Source: Methanothrix sp. (GTDB lineage: Archaea > Halobacteriota > Methanosarcinia > Methanotrichales > Methanotrichaceae). From it: DNA of 64,000 nt. The notes under the pieces were generated by a model. That model was not told the DNA's origin. It did no database searches and was given only the letters and a program-made list of their open reading frames with translations. The stretch lies in NCBI GenBank assembly GCA_963682135.1, contig OY821645.1:2656001-2720000 (forward strand). The letters are read 5' to 3'. A program made the translations under genes and the position numbers. This document shows, piece after piece, positions 19,467 through 34,439 of this stretch. Within the stretch, counting starts at the first letter, position 1, and every line of letters starts with the position of its first letter.

Positions 19467-20948
19467 TCATCTGCATATGCTCACCAGTCGACTGACTCCG
19501 TCGCTTGTTATCATGCCTATTAACCTTTGATTGCCATCCACCACCGGAAGAGCCGAGATATTATGCTCATTCATGCGCTTGGCGGCTCGCTCGATTGGAT
19601 CTTCCTGAGCGGAGATGACCACCTTGCGGGTCATTATCTCCTCCAGCAGAGTGTACTTCAAGGCCACAGCCTTGGATACATCCCAGGCGGTGACAATCCC
19701 AACCAGCTTTCCTTCTGCGTTGATTACGGGCAGGTGAGTTACGCCCTCGTTCATCATGATTCCGGCTGCCTCCTCTACGCTGGAGCCCTGTTGGATGGTT
19801 ACTAGCTCTTTGATCATCACATCACCAACTGATCTGCGGGAGAGGAAATTTTGGATGGTATAATTCATCTGCCCGGATTCCAGGAGAAAAGCATCATGCC
19901 CGTAGTTTGATCGGATTGTGCAATGACGCACATCGATATCATTGGCACTGATAGCCTCAGCGATCTCTTTGCACTGGTAAGGCGGATAAAGCCAGTCTGA
20001 GCTAATGGATATGACCAGGAACTTTGTCTTGGCGCCCTTAAAGGCCTCAGCCAAAGAGAGAGTGCCATTCTTTGTCAGGTCGAAGTAGTCTATGGCCTTG
20101 GTGATGTAAAGATAGGAATTGGCATCGAAGCGCTTCACAAAGGCATCACCGTGGTAGCTCAGATAGCTCTCAACCTGAAAGTCCAGAGATGCGAGATCAA
20201 AGCCGAATTCTTTTTTGCCCTGCAAGCGCCGACCGAACTTCTGATGCATGGACTCGTCGCTGAGGTATGTGATATGCCCGATCATCCTGGCCAGAGAGAG
20301 ACCGCGAGCTGGAGGAGTTCGTCCGAAATAGTTGCCATTGTTCCAGTCCGGGTCTGAGGTTATGGCTCTGCGCCCCACCTCATTGAAAGCAATCTGCTGG
20401 GGTGAGGAGTAGGCGCTGGTGGCTATGGGCACGGCGAGACGCACCATCTCCGGGTAGGATATGCACCATTGCAAAACTTGCATTCCGCCAAAGGATCCGC
20501 CAATGACTGCAAATAGCTTATCTATACCTAGGTGATCCAGGAGCCTCTTTTGGACGTCCACCATATCTTTCAGCGTGATGAAGGGAAAGTCCAGGCTGTA
20601 AGGCTTTCCAGTCCTGGGATTAAGAGAGGAGGGACCTGTAGTCCCTTTGCATCCGCCCAGTACATTGGAGCATATGATAAAGAATTTATCGGTATCCAGA
20701 GCTTTACCTGGGCCGATGATAATGTCCCACCAGCCTGGTTTCTCTTCATTCTTATGCCAGCCACCAGCATGAGCGTCTCCGGAGAGAGCGTGGCAGATGA
20801 GGATGGCATTGCTCTTTTCTTTATTCAGAAGGCCATAGGTCTCGTAAGCAACTCTGGCCCCGTCGAGCCGGCCGCCATGCTCCAGGACTATCTCTTCTGG
20901 AATATGATAGCATTGAGTCTCAACTTGGCCCGCAGATTCGCGTTTCAT
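19467..20948 (-). CDS. metX: Homoserine O-acetyltransferase with C-terminal CBS pair
   Basis: HALSG, GGSFGG nucleophile elbow, GHDAFL; two CBS domains. Confidence 0.9.
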
Positions 20949-20963
20949 TTGAAATCTCTCTAA

Positions 20964-21605
20964 TTAAGGATAAACAATCATCTTCAAGGCGGTTTTATCT
21001 GCCGTAACTATGTTATTTTCATCCAGAGGAACCTCTTTAACTATTCCACCGGCAACCTCAACAGCCAGGAATTCTGTGTAATGCACCAGTGAAGAGACAA
21101 TCACGCTGTCACCCTTCTTAACAATGGACTGAGTTATAGCCTGAAATCCTCTACGGGCACCGGGGACGACCCGAGCCTGATCCATGTTCAGGAACTTGGC
21201 CAGATCCTGGTGGAACTCCTCAATTGGAGGACGGGTGATTTTATCGAGCCGGAAGGGCTTTCGGCAGTAGTCGCAGGTAGAGTAACCATCTCCATAAGAT
21301 ATGATGGCCTTGCGCGCCTCGGGCGTAAGCCTGCCCGCCGCCTGGATGGAGTGGATGTTTATGAACTCCTCTTCCCTGGTCCTTGGTTCGAGCTTTCCTA
21401 CCCTGTTGCAGGCTGGTTTGCCTTCACCTTTCTCCAAGTCGGAGATGATGCTCTTAATCCTCGTAATAGTATTGGAAAAGTCCTCTTGCTGCACCTCATC
21501 AAAACCTGCCGGTAGAGATTGCCTGAAGATCTCTCTGATATCCTCCAGGGCAAAGAGTGCCTCATATGTTTTCTGAATCTGTAGACTCTTTATGGATTCG
21601 CTCAC
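20964..21605 (-). pseudogene. pscS: Truncated Sep-tRNA:Cys-tRNA synthase with N-terminal SepCysE-like extension
   Basis: IQAAGRLTPEARKA, GDGYSTCDYC, PGARRGF, HYTE; stops at 213 aa, before the PLP-lysine region. Confidence 0.85.
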
Positions 21606-23720: not shown

Positions 23721-24024
23721 AAACTCATTATTAATTTTATCGTAATACCCGATGCTCGCATCGGTGATAAAGTGCATACGTATTCAACTTAGGCTTGGTA
23801 TCAATGCATCTTGGTTCCAGCTTCATGCGGCGGTGCCTCGGATGACTACCAGCTTACTGTGTGGGTGTACCGCAGCGGTTTCACTTGCGGATATATTTAA
23901 TATTTTTCCATCATTATTTCTTGAGCCTCTTAGTAGTATTATCATTTTGTCTCCCCCGTCCTTGCCGCAATCCAAACCTTCATTACCCCTTTCCCACCGT
24001 CCATCACAGTTTAGAGACCTCCAG

Positions 24025-24243
24025 ATGACCGCGCCTGCACCAAGCATCGACTACGCCGCCCTGAAGTCCGGCGGCATCATCATGCAAAAGGACGATGATT
24101 TATTCGCCCTACCCCTGCGCCTGCCCGGTGGCTGCATCGCTTCCAACCTTCTCCCAAAAATAGACGAGGTGGCCAAAAAATGCGGTCCGGTGGAAGTTCG
24201 CCTCACCACCAGGGCAGAGATGGAGATTCCCTGGATCAAATGA
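24025..24243 (+). pseudogene. N-terminal fragment of a nitrite/sulfite reductase-like (Dsr-LP) protein
   Basis: IDYAALKSGGII.QK..DLF...LRLPGG...V.LTTR..MEIPWI, then tandem TGA. Confidence 0.75.
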
Positions 24244-24854: not shown

Positions 24855-24949
24855 AGCCCTCCGGCAAGTGAAATAATGATGAACGTCAATTATCTTTGCC
24901 GCAATCTACAGTTATTTGTGCTTCCAGTGAAGATGAATGTATTGGACGT

Positions 24950-25020
24950 GCCGGGGTGACTGACCGGTTAAGTGCGCGGCTGCAGACCGCGAGAATTGGG
25001 TTCGACTCCCAACCCCGGCC
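24950..25020 (+). tRNA. Non-canonical tRNA-Cys(GCA) or tRNA-like element
   Basis: Stems GCCGGGG/CCCCGGC, ACT/AGT, CGCGG-CTGCAGA-CCGCG and TTGGG-TTCGACT-CCCAA; discriminator C. Confidence 0.85.
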
Positions 25021-25022
25021 TT

Positions 25023-26468
25023 ATGTTGATCAATAGCACCATGAGCGGCAAGAAGGAGCCTTTCTTGCCTATTCATGACAATCGCGTTAACCTCTTTGTA
25101 TGCGGTCCAACCGTTTATGACAATTCGCATATCGGCCATGCCAGAACCTATATCTTCTTTGATGTGGTGGCACGCTACCTCAAGCACATTGGTTTTAGCG
25201 TCTTTTATCTGCAAAATATCACCGATGTGGACGACAAGATAATTGACCGGGCAGCCCTGCAGGGCATCTCGCCCCGACTGCTGGCACGCACCTTCGAAGA
25301 GAAATACCGTGAGGACATGCAGGCATTGGGCGTGACCAGCATCAACTACTATGCCCGCGCCTCAGAGCATATTCCTGAGATCATCAGCCAAATTAGCAGG
25401 CTGATTGAGAAGGGTTTTGCCTATGAGACACAGACCGGTGTGTACTTTGACGAATCCCGTTTCAAGGACTTTGGAAAGCTCTCTCATCAGAGCCTGGAAG
25501 ACCTGGAAAAACACAGGATTGAGCCGGATCCGACCAAGAGAAATCCTGGGGACTTCTCGCTGTGGAAGAAGCGGCAGGACGGCCCGGAGGTCACCTGGGA
25601 CTCGCCCTGGGGAAAGGGCAGACCTGGTTGGCATATCGAGGACACGGCCATCACTGAGAGCTATTTCGGGGCGCAGTACGATATTCATGGCGGAGCCATG
25701 GACCTGATCTTTCCTCACCACGAGGCTGAGATCGCCCAGATGGAGGCGACATCCGGCAAAAAGCCGCTGGTGAGATTCTGGATGCACACCGGCTTTCTCA
25801 ACGTCAACGGCGAGAAGATGTCAAAATCGTTGGGCAACTTCACCACCATCCGGGAGATGCTGGCGAAGTTCGATGCCGATTCGTTCCGCTTCTTTGTGCT
25901 CTCCTCCCATTATCATAGCCCGATCGACTTCTCAGAGTCGGCTTTAGAGCAGTCGAGAAAGAGCCTGGAGCGCATTCGCCAGGCGGCAAAGGCCATCGAG
26001 GAGGAACTGGAAAGGACGCCACAGTCTGCGAACGAGGCATCCCTGAAAGACGAAGCAGATGATGCGGGAATGGCTGAATTCAAGGCCAAGTTTCTCGATT
26101 CGATGGACAACGACTTCAACACTCCCTATGCCCTGAAAGCCGTCTTCGAGCTGGTAAGAGAGGTCAACCGCCGCATAAACGAGAGGACCATCTCCAAAGA
26201 AAGCCTGAGCGAGGCAGGACGACTGCTGGATGATTTCGGGCGAATACTCGGCATCAGCTTTTCGCCTGCAAAGTGCGGGCACTCTGAAGGTTTCGGGAAT
26301 AACCAGGATCTTACTGGCAATCTAATTGAACTGTTGATTGATGTAAGGCAGAAACTGCGAGATAAAAAGGATTGGGCTCTGGCCGACGAGATCAGAAACC
26401 GGTTAAACGAGCACGGCATCGTCCTGGAAGACGCTAAGTCCGGCGGAGGAAGATACTCGATCAAATGA
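25023..26468 (+). CDS. cysS: Cysteinyl-tRNA synthetase (variant with WHIED)
   Basis: CGPTVY, HIGH, KMSKS, FPHHE, DDFNTP-like motif and anticodon-binding helices. Confidence 0.95.
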   Translation: MLINSTMSGKKEPFLPIHDNRVNLFVCGPTVYDNSHIGHARTYIFFDVVARYLKHIGFSVFYLQNITDVDDKIIDRAALQGISPRLLARTFEEKYREDMQALGVTSINYYARASEHIPEIISQISRLIEKGFAYETQTGVYFDESRFKDFGKLSHQSLEDLEKHRIEPDPTKRNPGDFSLWKKRQDGPEVTWDSPWGKGRPGWHIEDTAITESYFGAQYDIHGGAMDLIFPHHEAEIAQMEATSGKKPLVRFWMHTGFLNVNGEKMSKSLGNFTTIREMLAKFDADSFRFFVLSSHYHSPIDFSESALEQSRKSLERIRQAAKAIEEELERTPQSANEASLKDEADDAGMAEFKAKFLDSMDNDFNTPYALKAVFELVREVNRRINERTISKESLSEAGRLLDDFGRILGISFSPAKCGHSEGFGNNQDLTGNLIELLIDVRQKLRDKKDWALADEIRNRLNEHGIVLEDAKSGGGRYSIK

Positions 26469-26603
26469 TTATAATTGGGGTCAATATTGCCGCAATCGCA
26501 GACTTGATAATGGATCAGGTTGCAGGACAGATTGGTGAAATGAAAATGAGGGATCGACTTTGCAGAAACCAAAAATGAATCGACCAGCACGAAGATAGAG
26601 CAC

Positions 26604-26825
26604 TTGCCACCATCGGCAAAGCTTGTCTTTAAGGTGCTGGAATCAGGCAGCCTTCTCACGCAAAAAGATATCGTCGCCAAGACCTATCTTCCGCAAAGGA
26701 CCGTAAGGTATGCCCTGAACCGATTGAAGGAACAACATATCCTTCAAGAGCGCTTCTATTTCCAGGATGCGCGCCAGAGCCTCTATGGACTGAGTCCCGA
26801 AACCCAGGAGGTGGTGGCAGAGTAA
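26604..26825 (+). CDS. Small winged-helix DNA-binding protein
   Basis: LPPSAKLVFKVL..G.LTQKDI...LP.RTVRYAL.RL...DARQSLY. Confidence 0.85.
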   Translation: MPPSAKLVFKVLESGSLLTQKDIVAKTYLPQRTVRYALNRLKEQHILQERFYFQDARQSLYGLSPETQEVVAE

Positions 26826-27063: not shown

Positions 27064-28563
<1,500 letters not shown>

Positions 28564-28582
28564 TTAAATGAGAGGTTTACTT

Positions 28583-29512
28583 ATGGGAAGGATCTATGAA
28601 GATCTAACCAAGACCATTGGCAATACGCCTCTGGTAAGATTGAACAGAATCACGAAGGGCCTGGATGCTACCGTGCTGGTAAAGCTGGAATCATTCAATC
28701 CCTTGAGCAGCGTCAAAGACCGAATCGGCGTCTCCATGATTGAGGCAGCAGAAAAGGCGGGCCATATCAAGGAGGATACCATTATCCTTGAGCCTACTAG
28801 CGGCAATACCGGAATCGCTCTGGCTTTTGTCAGCGCCGCCAAGGGCTACAAGCTGACCCTCGTCATGCCTGAAACCATGTCTATTGAGCGGCGAAAGCTG
28901 CTCAAGGCTCTGGGCGCTGATCTGGTCCTCACTCCAGGAAGCCAGGGAATGAAGGGAGCAGTGAGTACGGCAGAAGAAATGCTTGTTAAAGATCCTCGCT
29001 TCTACTACATCCCCCAGCAGTTTAGAAATCCGTCCAATCCCGAGGTCCACCGCAAGACCACGGCAGAGGAGATCTGGCGGGATACAGACGGAATGGTGGA
29101 CATTCTCGTAGCTGGTGTGGGCACCGGCGGAACCATAACCGGAATTGCTGATGTCATAAAGTCCAGGAAGCCTGGCTTCAAGGCAGTGGCAGTCGAGCCA
29201 TCTGCCTCCCCGGTTCTCTCCGGAGGCAAACCGGGACCGCACAAAATCCAGGGATTGGCGCCGGGATTCGTGCCCGACGTTCTCAAGCTCGACCTGGTGG
29301 ATGAGATAGTCAAAGTGGAGTACGAGGATGCAGTAAAAACTGCTCGCCGCCTGGCAAGAGAAGAAGGCATCTTGGTCGGCATCTCCTCAGGAGCCGCCGC
29401 CTGGGCTGGACTGGAGCTGGCAGCAAGACCGGAGAATAAAGGGAAGCAGATTGTGGTAATCCTCCCCGACACCGGAGAGCGCTACCTCAGCACCGAGCTA
29501 TTCGAATTCTAG
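28583..29512 (+). CDS. cysK: Cysteine synthase A
   Basis: [24 protein letters not shown]; GAGG SD. Confidence 0.95.
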
Positions 29513-29525
29513 GGGTGGGCAGGAG

Positions 29526-30482
29526 ATGAGCATCAGAGAGGATATCCGGACCATCTTTGCCAAGGACCCCGCTGCCAAGTCTACCCTAGAAGTAATCACC
29601 TGCTATCCGGGGCTGCATGCCATCTGGATGCACCGGATCTCTCACTTCCTCTGGGCTCATAAACTCTTTTTTCTAGCCAGATTCAGCTCCCATATCAGCC
29701 GATTCCTGACAGGCGTCGAGATCCACCCCGGAGCAAAAATCGGCAAGCGGTTCTTCATCGATCACGGCATGGGGGTGGTCATAGGCGAGACAGCCGAGGT
29801 AGGAGATGATGTGTTGATGTACATGGGAACGGTCCTGGGCGGAACCAGTCTCGACAAAGTCAAGCGCCATCCCACGGTCGAGGACCGGGTGGTCATCGGC
29901 GCTGGCTCCATCATACTTGGACCGATCACCATAGGAAACGGCGCCAAGATCGGAGCAGGTTCGGTGGTGGTTCGGTCTGTGCCTGCGGGAGCAACTGTGG
30001 TAGGTGTGCCTGGAAGAATCGCCGAACCGGAATGCCCGGCAACAGGAACGGATCTGAACTATGCCAATCTGCCCGATCCCATGCTGCGAGTGGTAAGCAG
30101 ACTGCTCGACCGGCAAAACCGACTGGAGGAGCGGCTGCGCTCTCTGCAAAAAGCTATGAGCGGGCCGGAGGCGGAGATGCTGGTGGCCCAAATGAAAAAA
30201 GAAGAGGAGATTCGAGAGGCTTTGCGGGATGTTCTCGACCCTGAGGTGGGCATAGATATCGTGGACCTGGGACTGATCAAAGATATAATCATTCGCAGCG
30301 AGGATACTGTGGAGGTGAACATGGTGCTGACCTCCCAGGTTTGCCCCATGGTCAGCCACCTCACAGAGCAGGTAAAAAGGCGCGTGAAAGGCCTCAACGG
30401 CATTCGACAGGTTGAGGTTAGGGTCTTAGATGAGCCCTGGAACTGGGAATACTTCGTCAAGCAGCAGAAATCGAGGGCTTAG
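29526..30482 (+). CDS. cysE: Serine O-acetyltransferase fused to a C-terminal DUF59/SufT-like domain
   Basis: DPAA, EIHPGA, FIDHG, KRHPT; C-terminal [14 protein letters not shown]...LTS..CP. Confidence 0.9.
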
Positions 30483-30541: not shown

Positions 30542-31759
30542 ATGGAGATACTTGCCGATGTTGGTGGAAGACCTGGCCTGGATTGCAGAGGCTTTTGCAG
30601 CTACTGTTATTTCAAAGGAGTAAAAAGCGTCCCACCCTTCGGCTGCAAGCATTGCATGCCCTTCCAGAAGGGCTGCGATTACTGTTCCCGCGCCATTGCG
30701 GAGGGCTATCCGGGCTTCAAGCCCATGGACGGCGTCGTATTCGAGGTGGCGGGAAAGTGCATGGGCAGCATCCCCGATAAAGCCGTCATCAGCGGTGGCG
30801 GGGATCTGAGCTGCTATCCTGACCTTTTGGCTCTCACAAAGATGCTCTCTCAGGGCATGGTTCCTATAGCTTTAGGCTACACCTCAGGAAAGGGCTTCAA
30901 GAGTGCGAATGATGCAGCCGCTCTGGTGGAGGCGGGAGTCACCGAGGTCTCCTTTACCGTATTTTCCACAAACCCGGAGCTACGCCGCAAGTACATGAAC
31001 GATAAAAACGCTGAGATTGCGCTTGAGTGCCTAAAGATATTCTGCAAAAGCTGCGAGGTTTACGCAGCAGCCGTTCTCATTCCTGGCGTAAACGACGGAG
31101 CAGAGCTGGAGAAGACCTGCAGCGACCTGGAGGATATGGGAGCCAAAGGACTGATCCTGATGAGATTTGCCAATTCCCGCGAGCAGGGTCTGATCCTGGG
31201 AAATGCTCCTATCATCGAAGGCATAACGCCGCACTCTGTGGAGGAGTTTCAAAACATTGTCACCGAATTGGCAGCGAAGCATCGTTTGAGAGTAACAGGA
31301 ACTCCTCTCTGGGATCCGCTCACGGGGGCGCCTTTTGCCCTGGCCCGCCATCCGGAGATGGTCTCTGCTTTGCCGCCACTGCGCAGAGGCGCAACCATCA
31401 TAACCAGCCTCGTTGCCCGACCCTTGTTGACTGCCATTTTTTCTCAGATGGGCGAAAAAGTGAATGTGATGGCAGTAAACAAAGATGTAGGTTGCCTGAT
31501 AACCATAGAGGATTTCATGGATCTGGATCTTAGTGATGTCAAGGACACAGTCATCATTCCCGGTCGCACCCTGGCCCATGAAAAAGAGATAAAAAAGGCT
31601 CTGGGACGTGATGGTCGGGATAGGATTGTAGCTCGGGGCCCGGACAGGCTCACCGTTGATGGAGAGATGAGCATCTCCATGACTGAGGCGGAGGTTCTGG
31701 ATCTGGAGATGGAAGCCTTCGAGGAGCTGATTGAGGCCATCAACGCGCTGGGGGTCTAG
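30542..31759 (+). CDS. mmp10: Methanogenesis marker 10 radical SAM protein (MCR arginine methyltransferase family)
   Basis: GGRPGLDCRGFCSYCYF, GCKHC....GCDYC, LMRFAN, GPDRLTVDGEMS. Confidence 0.9.
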   Translation: MEILADVGGRPGLDCRGFCSYCYFKGVKSVPPFGCKHCMPFQKGCDYCSRAIAEGYPGFKPMDGVVFEVAGKCMGSIPDKAVISGGGDLSCYPDLLALTKMLSQGMVPIALGYTSGKGFKSANDAAALVEAGVTEVSFTVFSTNPELRRKYMNDKNAEIALECLKIFCKSCEVYAAAVLIPGVNDGAELEKTCSDLEDMGAKGLILMRFANSREQGLILGNAPIIEGITPHSVEEFQNIVTELAAKHRLRVTGTPLWDPLTGAPFALARHPEMVSALPPLRRGATIITSLVARPLLTAIFSQMGEKVNVMAVNKDVGCLITIEDFMDLDLSDVKDTVIIPGRTLAHEKEIKKALGRDGRDRIVARGPDRLTVDGEMSISMTEAEVLDLEMEAFEELIEAINALGV

Positions 31760-34354: not shown

Positions 34355-34439
34355 GCGGGGGTTTCCAAGCCAGGTCAAAGGAGCAGGGTTGAGGGCCCTG
34401 TCGCGCAGGCGTTCGCGGGTTCGAATCCCGTCTCCCGCA
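34355..34439 (+). tRNA. tRNA-Leu(GAG)
   Basis: Cloverleaf with CAGGG-TTGAGGG-CCCTG anticodon arm, long variable arm, GGTTCGAATCC and A73. Confidence 0.95.

What the first reader, a model, noticed from the sequence alone, without database searches (positions are those of the whole stretch)
24950..25020. tRNA-Cys with perfect stems but several non-canonical single positions
Seen: all four stems pair perfectly and G37 is kept. However the discriminator is C, position 10-25 is A-U, position 15 is C opposite A48, and position 21 appears to be U (manual numbering). Known: archaeal tRNAs normally have G15:C48 and A21, and tRNA-Cys has U73. Inference: intact stems with altered tertiary and identity bases look like selection for a different function rather than random decay.
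Basis: partly seen in the sequence, partly recalled or inferred. Interest (0 to 1): 0.7.

Follow-up and report, generated by a model that had tools for sequence, protein, structure and literature searches.

The report
Private cysteine tRNA fused to cysS
This is a real, strongly conserved second cysteine tRNA with an unusual C at its identity position, sitting two bases in front of the cysteinyl-tRNA synthetase gene of a methanogen; it is most likely that enzyme's own partner tRNA, a kind of pairing already noted in related methanogens.

Summary
The tRNA-Cys(GCA) at 24950-25020 (+) is real (ARAGORN; Rfam 53.4 bits). The D stem has only three Watson-Crick pairs plus G13.A22, and 'U21' depends on numbering.

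It is not decaying. Across 23 distinct homologues 99.6% of stem cells pair, and 9 of 20 pairs change on both sides.

The cysS start codon lies 2 nt after the discriminator. In 59 genomes of the genus, tRNA and cysS occur together in 25 and are both missing in 32. SepRS (55 of 59) and a canonical U73 tRNA-Cys (53 of 59) are core.

Related CysRS clades carry their own linked tRNA-Cys with C73, A73, G73 or U73.

Best reading: a dedicated partner tRNA co-transcribed with its CysRS, running beside the SepRS route. Charging specificity is inferred, not shown.

Non-U73 tRNA-Cys with co-evolved CysRS in SepRS methanogens is already in print (PMC8762117, passages). This is therefore a new member of a known kind. 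The 1-3 nt tRNA-to-start junction and the cassette's joint gain, loss and decay may be new.

The parts
24896..24906 (+). Conserved upstream element TTGCCGCAATC (arms TTGC/GCAA around one base), 44 nt before the tRNA. Candidate operator or promoter-proximal site.
   Evidence: There are 4 matches to TTGCCGCWAYC in the window against 0.19 expected; 3 lie within 2.6 kb on the + strand. A TTGCCGC-like word stands at the same distance in 13 of 13 genus loci read, with one-base variants in L001, L006 and L024.
24912..24919 (+). AT-rich TTATTTGT, a candidate archaeal TATA box about 35 nt before the tRNA 5' end. This would give a short 5' leader (inferred).
   Evidence: Read. GTATTWGTG-like words stand at the same place in the 13 loci. 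No promoter tool for archaea was available.
24950..25020 (+). tRNA-Cys(GCA), 71 nt, with C73, A10:U25, G13.A22, C15, a 4-nt variable loop (A48) and G37. No CCA is encoded; TTA follows.
   Evidence: ARAGORN; Rfam 53.4 bits; covariation; 31 places in 26 of 59 genomes of the genus.
25023..26468 (+). cysS, a full-length cysteinyl-tRNA synthetase (481 aa). Its ATG is 2 nt after the discriminator.
   Evidence: Translation. TIGR00435 at 504.5 bits against a cut-off of 340; it is the only copy in the genome. Pfam finds tRNA-synt_1e, DALR_2 and CysS_C. The first ATG is kept where the second in-frame ATG is not (L001, L005, L006). An ATG stands at +3 in 29 of 31 genus places; the other two are L041 (ACG) and L035 (cysS deleted).
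26487..26497 (+). Second copy of TTGCCGCAATC, 19 nt after the cysS stop codon.
26604..26825 (+). Small winged-helix (MarR-like) ORF downstream of cysS. Candidate regulator of the locus (inferred).
   Evidence: ORF. The Pfam MarR_2 match is weak (E 9.6e-4, 19.7 bits, below the cut-off of 27). Homologous DNA lies beside cassettes in L035, L042 and L001.
23962..23972 (+). Third copy of TTGCCGCAATC, upstream of a 72-aa ORF (24025-24243) with a sulfite/nitrite-reductase ferredoxin-like half domain.
   Evidence: Pfam NIR_SIR_ferr, E 7.3e-10
28568..30482 (+). cysK (28568-29512) and cysE (29526-30482), which make free cysteine, 2-4 kb downstream of cysS.
   Evidence: TIGR01139 at 463.6 bits and TIGR01172 at 236.5 bits

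Best explanation
The gene encodes a working second tRNA-Cys isoacceptor that forms a unit with the cysS gene fused to its 3' end.

Proposed steps:
1. One promoter upstream of the tRNA drives a tRNA-cysS precursor.
2. RNase P and tRNase Z cut the tRNA out, and CCA is added afterwards because none is encoded.
3. This leaves a cysS mRNA with a 2-nt leader.
4. The CysRS of this clade charges the C73 tRNA with free cysteine made by the neighbouring cysK and cysE.
5. The core SepRS/SepCysS route serves the canonical U73 tRNA-Cys.
6. C73 keeps the private tRNA out of the U73-gated SepCysS step.
7. Both tRNAs read UGU and UGC.

Shown here:
- the gene and its selection;
- the physical fusion to cysS;
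- joint presence, absence and decay of the two genes;
- a match between discriminator base and CysRS clade.

Inferred: co-transcription (nearly forced by the 1-3 nt spacing), processing, and who charges what.
For: (1) It is a real tRNA under constraint.
- Rfam gives 53.4 bits.
- In 15 distinct family sequences 99.7% of 300 stem cells pair, with a two-sided change in each of the four helices and 0 of 500 shuffles reaching the covariation score.
- With the A73 clade added (23 sequences), 99.6% of 460 cells pair and 9 of 20 pairs change on both sides.

(2) Fusion to cysS.
- An ATG stands 2 nt after C73 in 29 of 31 places in the genus.
- The spacing is 1-3 nt in the other Methanotrichaceae genera and in G306 and G204.

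(3) It behaves as an accessory cassette.
- Of 59 genus genomes, 25 have both the tRNA and CysRS, and 32 have neither.
- G062 has only a C-terminal piece of CysRS. G071 has only the tRNA.
- The U73 tRNA-Cys is in 53 of 59 genomes (30 of 30 high-quality) and SepRS in 55 of 59.
- The own genome has SepRS (751 bits), a full SepCysS (556 bits) and one CysRS.

(4) Joint decay.
- Changes at universally conserved tRNA positions occur only beside broken cysS genes: A58 to C in L023, and anticodon GCA to GTA plus G53 to T in L024.
- They occur in 0 of 25 intact cassettes.
- L067 keeps only the 3' half of the tRNA beside a cysS with a stop codon. L110 lacks the tRNA 3' end and the first 55 codons of cysS.

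(5) Discriminator follows CysRS clade.
- C73, A73, G73 and the linked-U73 group each form one clade with SH-aLRT support of 99-100.
- Methanobacteriaceae-titled loci with a linked tRNA (16 C73, 2 U73) join the C73 clade at support 99.
- Methanosarcina-type CysRS (at most 39% identity) has no tRNA within 450 nt in 21 of 21 loci.

(6) Literature.
- U73 is a major determinant for CysRS and SepRS.
- SepCysS makes room 'exclusively for U73' (PMC5688128, passages).
- Orthogonality of CysRS and SepRS systems with non-U73 tRNA-Cys has been proposed (PMC8762117, Discussion passage).
Against: - No charging, maturation or expression data exist for this tRNA. The only RNA libraries that hold it were available as contigs.
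- Two of 18 Methanobacteriaceae-type linked tRNAs (L222, L235) have U73 while nested among C73 relatives. The clade's CysRS may therefore accept either pyrimidine, and specificity may be relaxed or one-way.
- Chen et al. write that SepRS is relatively insensitive to changes at position 73 compared with CysRS. SepRS might therefore still load Sep onto the C73 tRNA.
- I found no CysRS residues that track the discriminator in an interpretable way.
- In G071 cysS is deleted but the tRNA is intact.
- In family f13 the A73 tRNA is not linked to cysS. Linkage is therefore not required for the pairing.
Confidence: 0.65

Rival explanations
1. It is a plain redundant tRNA-Cys gene. C73 is tolerated by every enzyme of the cell, and the position beside cysS is a historical accident of a transferred gene pair with no partitioning between the two charging routes.
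For: Both tRNAs carry the same GCA anticodon. U73 reappears twice inside the C73 CysRS clade. SepRS is reported to be less sensitive at position 73. No specificity residues were found in CysRS.
Against: C73 is invariant in 31 of 31 genus places and in all 15 distinct family sequences, although U73 is the strongest known CysRS determinant. Each non-U discriminator maps to one CysRS clade. The tRNA is never found in the 32 genus genomes without cysS.
Confidence: 0.15
2. It is mainly a cis-acting tRNA-shaped leader of cysS. It would serve as a processing signal that creates the mRNA 5' end, or as a decoy that CysRS binds to regulate its own synthesis, and would not be used on the ribosome.
For: The spacing to the start codon is 1-3 nt across Methanotrichaceae-type loci. 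The tRNA and cysS decay together. The tRNA is strictly absent where cysS is absent.
Against: In the sister groups the homologous tRNA stands 13-54 nt (A73 clade) or 38-218 nt (Methanobacteriaceae type) upstream. In f13 it is unlinked to cysS yet intact. Features needed for translation rather than for cleavage are kept in all intact copies: U33, G37, the GCA anticodon, G18G19 and the TUC-type T loop. G071 keeps the tRNA after losing cysS.
Confidence: 0.1
3. It is a charged tRNA used outside translation, for example as a cysteine donor for another pathway.
For: The core positions are unusual (C15/A48, 4-nt variable loop, G13.A22). The gene has an accessory distribution.
Against: No candidate transferase is linked; the neighbours are cysK, cysE, metX and a sulfhydrylase. 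G13.A22 is shared with the canonical tRNA-Cys. The 15/48 pair varies freely within the family.
Confidence: 0.05
4. It is a decaying pseudogene.
For: Some second copies do decay (L023, L024, L041, L067, L110).
Against: The window copy is identical to that of 9 other genus loci. It scores 103.5 bits on the family model. It sits before an intact 481-aa cysS. Stems are kept by compensatory changes.
Confidence: 0.02

Closest known systems
Non-U73 tRNA-Cys with co-evolved CysRS in SepRS-using methanogens (Perona et al. 2018, as reported in Mukai et al. 2022, PMC8762117; I saw passages of the Discussion only; the 2018 chapter was not available)
   Same: A methanogen with SepRS/SepCysS, a canonical U73 tRNA-Cys, and a second tRNA-Cys whose discriminator is not U, matched to a particular CysRS lineage. 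My data recover the listed cases: G73 in loci titled Methanospirillum and Methanoregula, and C73 in Methanobacterium-titled loci.
   Different: Methanothrix and Methanotrichaceae are not named in the passages I saw. I did not find in print the 1-3 nt fusion to the cysS start codon, the invariant A10:U25, the joint presence, absence and decay within a genus, or the placing of Methanotrichaceae and Methanobacteriaceae pairs in one clade. The chapter and the supplements were not visible to me.
Methanosarcina mazei tRNA-Cys isoacceptors preferred by SepRS or by CysRS (Hauenstein and Perona 2008; seen only as cited in PMC9976931 and PMC8762117; the paper itself is not held)
   Same: Two charging routes in one cell, with each enzyme preferring a different tRNA-Cys isoacceptor.
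   Different: There the preference is said to rest on core nucleotides. In the one Methanosarcina-type genome I looked at (G142), all tRNA-Cys genes found have U73, and none lies next to cysS.
selC* tRNA-Cys with a dedicated CysRS* in Desulfobacterales (Mukai et al. 2017, PMC5389517, passages)
   Same: A special tRNA-Cys is encoded beside a CysRS that is adapted to its acceptor end.
   Different: That system is bacterial. It has an 8/4 tRNA shape, keeps U73, uses an A1:U72 pair and a UCA anticodon, and its CysRS* lacks the anticodon-binding domain. Here the tRNA is a 7/5 cloverleaf with GCA, and the CysRS is full length.
Two PylRS/tRNA-Pyl pairs in one archaeon kept apart by the discriminator, G73 against A73 (Zhang et al. 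2022, PMC9071458; seen in a search listing and as described in PMC9499178)
   Same: The discriminator base alone separates two synthetase-tRNA pairs for the same amino acid in one cell.
   Different: It is a different synthetase family, and there orthogonality was measured. Here it is inferred.
tRNA punctuation of mitochondrial transcripts (recalled, from no call)
   Same: Excision of a tRNA would create the end of the neighbouring mRNA.
   Different: This is an archaeal chromosome and a single junction, and it is not shown experimentally.

Membership tests
tRNA (Rfam RF00005) | Cloverleaf that scores above the family's gathering score over the whole model | tested here: met
   53.4 bits against 29, model positions 1-71; ARAGORN also calls it.
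tRNA (Rfam RF00005) | Base pairs maintained by compensatory change among homologues | tested here: met
   99.6% of 460 cells pair, and 9 of 20 pairs change on both sides. The slid controls give 35-47% paired.
Canonical tRNA-Cys identity set | GCA anticodon | tested here: met
   GCA is kept in all intact cassettes.
Canonical tRNA-Cys identity set | U73 discriminator | tested here: not met
   The discriminator is C at 25020, and C in 31 of 31 genus places.
Canonical tRNA-Cys identity set | Charged with cysteine in the cell | not testable with these tools
   Only contigs of public runs were on offer.
Non-U73 tRNA-Cys / co-evolved CysRS pairs of SepRS methanogens | The genome encodes SepRS and SepCysS | tested here: met
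   TIGR00470 at 751.3 bits; TIGR02539 at 556.3 bits.
Non-U73 tRNA-Cys / co-evolved CysRS pairs of SepRS methanogens | A canonical U73 tRNA-Cys coexists with the non-U73 one | tested here: met
   G000:C1:2030175-2030246 has U73 and G10:C25. The same coexistence holds in G039, G203 and G184.
Non-U73 tRNA-Cys / co-evolved CysRS pairs of SepRS methanogens | The discriminator identity tracks the CysRS lineage | tested here: met
   Each of C73, A73 and G73 forms one clade at support 99-100. There are two U73 reversions inside the C73 clade.
Non-U73 tRNA-Cys / co-evolved CysRS pairs of SepRS methanogens | Matching substitutions in the acceptor-binding region of CysRS (claimed in PMC8762117) | tested here: inconclusive
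   Group-specific columns exist. I had no list of residues that contact position 73, so none could be assigned.
Non-U73 tRNA-Cys / co-evolved CysRS pairs of SepRS methanogens | Mutual or one-way orthogonality in aminoacylation | not testable with these tools
   This needs enzyme assays.
tRNA pseudogene | Stem-breaking or conserved-position changes accumulating among copies | tested here: not met
   Not met for this copy or for the 25 intact cassettes. Such changes are seen only beside broken cysS genes.

The most novel reading that the evidence does not exclude
The tRNA and its synthetase are made from one transcript in which excision of the tRNA itself creates a leaderless cysS mRNA. The cell therefore produces a private tRNA and its enzyme in fixed proportion, under a local sulfur-responsive operator (TTGCCGCAATC) and a small winged-helix regulator. 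The same CysRS super-clade has switched its partner's discriminator to C, A, G or U in different lineages, and the C73 pair has crossed between Methanotrichaceae and Methanobacteriaceae. That would give a natural panel of CysRS/tRNA-Cys pairs, each insulated from the SepRS route.
Probability: 0.3. Interest if true: 0.65.

Novelty: new member of a known kind. Interest (0 to 1): 0.45.

Why it matters
U73 is treated as the near-universal mark of tRNA-Cys. A lineage that keeps two cysteine-charging routes in one cell, each apparently with its own tRNA, is a natural experiment in how a synthetase-tRNA pair can be added to a genome without disturbing the resident one.

The cassette is compact: promoter, tRNA, a 2-nt gap, then the synthetase. 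It is gained, lost and degraded as a unit and comes in four discriminator versions. This makes the question testable with a few transcripts and purified enzymes, and it offers candidate orthogonal pairs for code engineering.

It also warns annotators that a low isotype score or an odd discriminator does not by itself mean a pseudogene.

Tried and rejected
RNA evidence. The look-up of sequencing runs listed 7 runs. Two were labelled RNA (one of these a guess), each with a share of 0.07. Read laying on X1, X2, X3 and X5 gave contigs only.
- X3 and X5 behave like genomic DNA, with contigs up to 146-164 kb.
- X2 does not cover the tRNA.
- X1 (RNA is a guess) has one 246-nt contig at depth 4.3. It runs from 21 nt before a relative's tRNA, through it, into cysS.
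- A contig across two genes does not show one transcript, and DNA carry-over is possible. I draw no conclusion on expression, ends or CCA.

CysRS specificity residues. I aligned 52 CysRS sequences by partner discriminator.
- 11 columns depart from a conserved background, and 18 columns differ among the four linked groups.
- I could not say which of them touch position 73. The paper on the solved complex is not held, and the passages I read name only the contacts with the first base pair and the anticodon.
- The result is inconclusive.

Alignment. The plain MAFFT alignment A1 misplaced the D and variable regions of the A73 clade. I replaced it with a model-based alignment, A3. That alignment leans towards the model's structure, so I also give the ungapped family alignment A2.

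Papers. PMC2494925 and PMC1838712 are not held. The Perona 2018 chapter could not be searched. Supplements are closed. Any of these may already list the Methanothrix case or the gene linkage. My statement that I did not find them in print rests on searches and on passages.

Tools not available or not used.
- No tRNAscan-SE isotype score was available.
- I did not run the promoter scan because it models bacterial sigma-70 sites.

Genome-wide look at TTGCCGCWAYC. There are 26 matches, most of them inside genes. It therefore shows no wide regulon, only the local cluster of three.

Rows left out.
- The covariation alignments exclude L023, L024 and L041 (cassettes with broken cysS) and L110 (truncated tRNA).
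- The tree leaves out L240 (no N-terminus).
- From the 80 loci I chose 29 for the tree.

Full report
**What is there**

ARAGORN places a tRNA-Cys(GCA) at 24950-25020 on the + strand. Rfam's tRNA model matches it end to end at 53.4 bits, against a gathering score of 29.

Reading the sequence gives the following:
- an acceptor stem of 7 Watson-Crick pairs, an anticodon stem of 5 and a T stem of 5;
- a D stem of three pairs (A10-U25, C11-G24, U12-A23) followed by G13 opposite A22;
- a D loop reading A-C-C-G-G-U-U;
- the anticodon loop CUGCAGA, so position 37 is G;
- a four-base variable loop AGAA;
- the T loop UUCGACU;
- discriminator C.

No CCA is encoded; TTA follows the gene.

'All four stems perfect' does not hold for the D stem. 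'U21' depends on whether the single A after UU is numbered 21 or 22.

**A second, ordinary tRNA-Cys in the same genome**

The window is G000:C1:2656001-2720000 of a 3.04-Mb single-contig genome. ARAGORN finds 44 tRNAs there and Rfam finds 46.

Two of these are tRNA-Cys(GCA): the one in the window, and one at 2030175-2030246 with U73, G10:C25 and G15. The ordinary copy shares the G13-opposite-A arrangement and the same D-loop length. Those two 'oddities' are thus family traits of tRNA-Cys here and not marks of this gene.

**What follows it**

An ATG at 25023, two bases after the discriminator, opens a 481-residue cysteinyl-tRNA synthetase.
- It scores 504.5 bits on TIGR00435 and is the only copy in the genome.
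- It has the catalytic, DALR and anticodon-binding domains.
- The ATG at +3 is the conserved start. The next in-frame ATG is TTG or ATC in L001, L005 and L006.

The genome also has SepRS (751 bits) and a full SepCysS (556 bits). Both routes to Cys-tRNA are therefore present.

The neighbours are sulfur amino-acid genes:
- metX (19467-20948, minus strand);
- an O-acetylhomoserine sulfhydrylase (27064-28554, minus strand);
- cysK (28568-29512);
- cysE (29526-30482).

Methanogenesis marker Mmp10 lies at 30542-31759. Records whose CysRS is 89-95% identical are titled Methanothrix sp.. I therefore call the organism a Methanothrix-like member of the Methanotrichaceae.

**Distribution within the genus**

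I searched 59 genomes of the genus, the window's own included.
- The C73 tRNA is in 26 and CysRS is in 26.
- 25 genomes have both and 32 have neither.
- G062 has only residues 393-480 of a CysRS, in a 78%-complete assembly.
- G071 has the tRNA only.
- The U73 tRNA-Cys is in 53 of 59 genomes (30 of 30 high-quality ones), mostly 100% identical.
- SepRS is in 55 of 59.

The SepRS route and its tRNA are therefore core. The tRNA(C73)-cysS pair is an accessory unit.

**Selection**

The 31 full-length places in the genus give 12 distinct sequences.
- All 31 have C73, A10 and U25.
- The 25 places followed by an open cysS frame (23 ending in a stop codon at 464-484 residues, two running off the fetched DNA) carry tRNAs that are at least 96% identical, while their CysRS proteins fall to 69% identity.
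- G7:C66 becomes A7:U66 in eight places. L010 shows the G:U intermediate.

Adding the other genera of the family gives 15 distinct ungapped sequences.
- 99.7% of 300 stem cells pair.
- There is one pair with two-sided change in each of the four helices.
- 0 of 500 shuffles reach the observed covariation score.
- Sliding the partners gives 29-49% paired.

With the A73 clade added through a covariance model (23 sequences), 99.6% of 460 cells pair and 9 of 20 pairs change on both sides. That alignment is fitted to the model, which favours the structure. The ungapped alignment does not have this bias.

**Joint decay**

Five of the 31 genus places have a broken cysS: L023, L024, L031, L041 and L042. 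One has no cysS at all: L035.
- Changes at universally conserved tRNA positions occur only in the broken set. L023 has A58 to C. L024 has anticodon GCA to GTA, G53 to T and two G:U pairs. L041 has lost the ATG and has one C:G to U:G change.
- Outside the genus, L067 keeps only the 3' half of the tRNA before a cysS with a stop codon. L110 lacks the tRNA 3' end together with the first 55 codons of cysS. L059 is interrupted by an assembly gap.

One case runs against simple coupling. In G071 (L035) cysS has been cut out, the tRNA is intact, and it now lies next to the DNA that normally follows cysS.

**Beyond the family**

I looked upstream of cysS in other genomes of the class and phylum and in named records.
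- **C73, close fusion.** Methanotrichaceae-type CysRS (58-100% identity) has the C73 tRNA 1-3 nt before the ATG. This includes G306 (family f14) and G204 (family f21).
- **C73, with spacer.** Eighteen loci, mostly titled Methanobacterium or Methanobacteriaceae (CysRS 53-68% identical), have a homologous 71-nt tRNA with A10:U25 lying 38-218 nt upstream. Sixteen have C73 and two (L222, L235) have U73.
- **A73.** Twelve of 12 loci of genera g9 and g3 (41-47% identity) have an A73 tRNA with A10:U25 lying 13-54 nt upstream.
- **G73.** Ten loci of family f16 and its named kin (titles Methanospirillum, Methanoregula) have a G73 tRNA with G10:C25.
- **U73, linked.** Family f14 (one title says Methanophagales) has a linked U73 tRNA.
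- **Unlinked.** Twenty-one of 21 Methanosarcina-type loci (at most 39% identity) have no tRNA within 450 nt. Family f13 has an A73 tRNA elsewhere in the genome.
- G039, G203 and G184 also carry the canonical U73 tRNA-Cys.

**Trees**

In a quick maximum-likelihood tree of 52 CysRS sequences, each of the C73, A73, G73 and linked-U73 groups is one clade at SH-aLRT support 99-100.

With 29 named records added:
- The Methanotrichaceae and Methanobacteriaceae C73 groups form one clade of 25 at support 99.
- That clade also holds the two U73 reversions and two Methanobrevibacter rows without a tRNA within 600 nt.

These are quick searches with a simple model. The program warned about long branches, and deep relations between the clades are open.

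**Mechanism**

One to three bases leave no room for a promoter between the tRNA and cysS, and the tRNA is 68% G+C. cysS must therefore be transcribed from upstream of the tRNA.

A conserved TTGCCGCAATC (24896-24906) and an AT-rich TTATTTGT (24912-24919) stand where an operator and a TATA box would be.

I infer one precursor. RNase P and tRNase Z would release the tRNA, CCA would be added, and the cysS mRNA would begin two bases before its AUG.

Whether CysRS prefers C73, and whether SepRS/SepCysS reject it, is inferred from three things:
- the clade-by-clade match between discriminator and CysRS;
- the published U73 gate of SepCysS (PMC5688128);
- the conservation of the glycine and aromatic residues of that gate in this genome's SepCysS, by alignment to the solved M. 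jannaschii chain.

Three results stand against a strict reading:
- the same paper calls SepRS relatively insensitive at position 73;
- U73 reappears twice within the C73 clade;
- I could not tie any CysRS residue to the discriminator.

**What is known**

Mukai et al. 2022 (PMC8762117, Discussion passage) state, citing Perona et al. 2018, that:
- some Methanospirillum and Methanoregula have G73;
- some Methanobacterium have C73;
- Methanolobus and Methanocella have A73 tRNA-Cys;
- these come with changes in the acceptor-binding region of CysRS;
- the CysRS and SepRS systems may be orthogonal.

My survey reproduces these cases and adds the Methanotrichaceae.

I found no mention of Methanothrix or Methanosaeta in this context, nor of the linkage to cysS, in searches or in the passages read. 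The 2018 chapter, two key papers and all supplements were out of reach. I therefore file this as a new member of a known kind.

**Verdict**

- The inference of selection is right.
- The 'different function' is most likely a private supply line for the adjacent CysRS, not a role outside translation.
- Confidence in the core reading is 0.65.
- Interest is 0.45.

Noticed in passing
window 20964-21605 (-): A 213-aa ORF matches only the first third of SepCysS (TIGR02539 positions 2-122 of 370, 134.5 bits, below the cut-off). The full SepCysS lies elsewhere at G000:C1:2979364-2980452. It is either a truncated paralogue or a remnant, 3.3 kb upstream of the tRNA-cysS unit.
   Followed up: partly
window 23962-23972, 24896-24906, 26487-26497 (+): TTGCCGCAATC occurs three times within 2.6 kb, each time in front of a gene: a 72-aa NIR_SIR ferredoxin-like ORF, the tRNA-cysS unit, and a small winged-helix ORF. 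There are 4 matches in the window against 0.19 expected. Genome-wide there are 26 matches to the degenerate form, mostly inside genes. It may be a local operator.
   Followed up: partly
window 26604-26825 (+); L035:169-455: A small MarR-like ORF follows cysS. The Pfam match is weak, at 19.7 bits. Related DNA lies beside cassettes in other genomes and at G000:C1:2952786-2953071. In G071 the tRNA abuts this gene because cysS is deleted.
   Followed up: partly
G000:C1:875556-875629 (-), compared with window 24950-25020: The genome's tRNA-His has acceptor stem GCCGGGA/UCCCGGC followed by C. The A7:U66 variants of the C73 tRNA-Cys have the same stem and discriminator, and the window copy differs at one pair. 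The base before both genes is T, so no G-1 is encoded for either.
   Followed up: no
window 25641-25643 (CysRS residue 207): In the alignment, 80% of the unlinked CysRS sequences and the A73 clade have Cys at this column. The C73, G73 and linked-U73 clades all have Asp. From memory, this column is a zinc ligand in E. coli CysRS; I did not check that here.
   Followed up: no
G306:C96:17441-18835 and G306:C133:9-1094: One genome of family f14 holds a Methanotrichaceae-type C73 cassette (CysRS 66% identical, nested in that clade) as well as a second CysRS at 55% identity. This looks like transfer of the whole cassette between families. Several genomes (G012, G020, G053, G054, G074, G128, G147) carry two or more copies, some of them broken.
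   Followed up: partly
window 34355-34439 (+): The window's other tRNA, Leu(GAG), scores only 42.6 bits on Rfam, the lowest of the genome's 46 matches. I did not examine it.
   Followed up: no
L071, L083, L085; L152-L156, L181, L182: Several linked tRNA-Cys of the A73 and G73 clades have A37 instead of G37 (loop CUGCAAA). Yet m1G37 is reported as a determinant for archaeal SepRS and CysRS.
   Followed up: no
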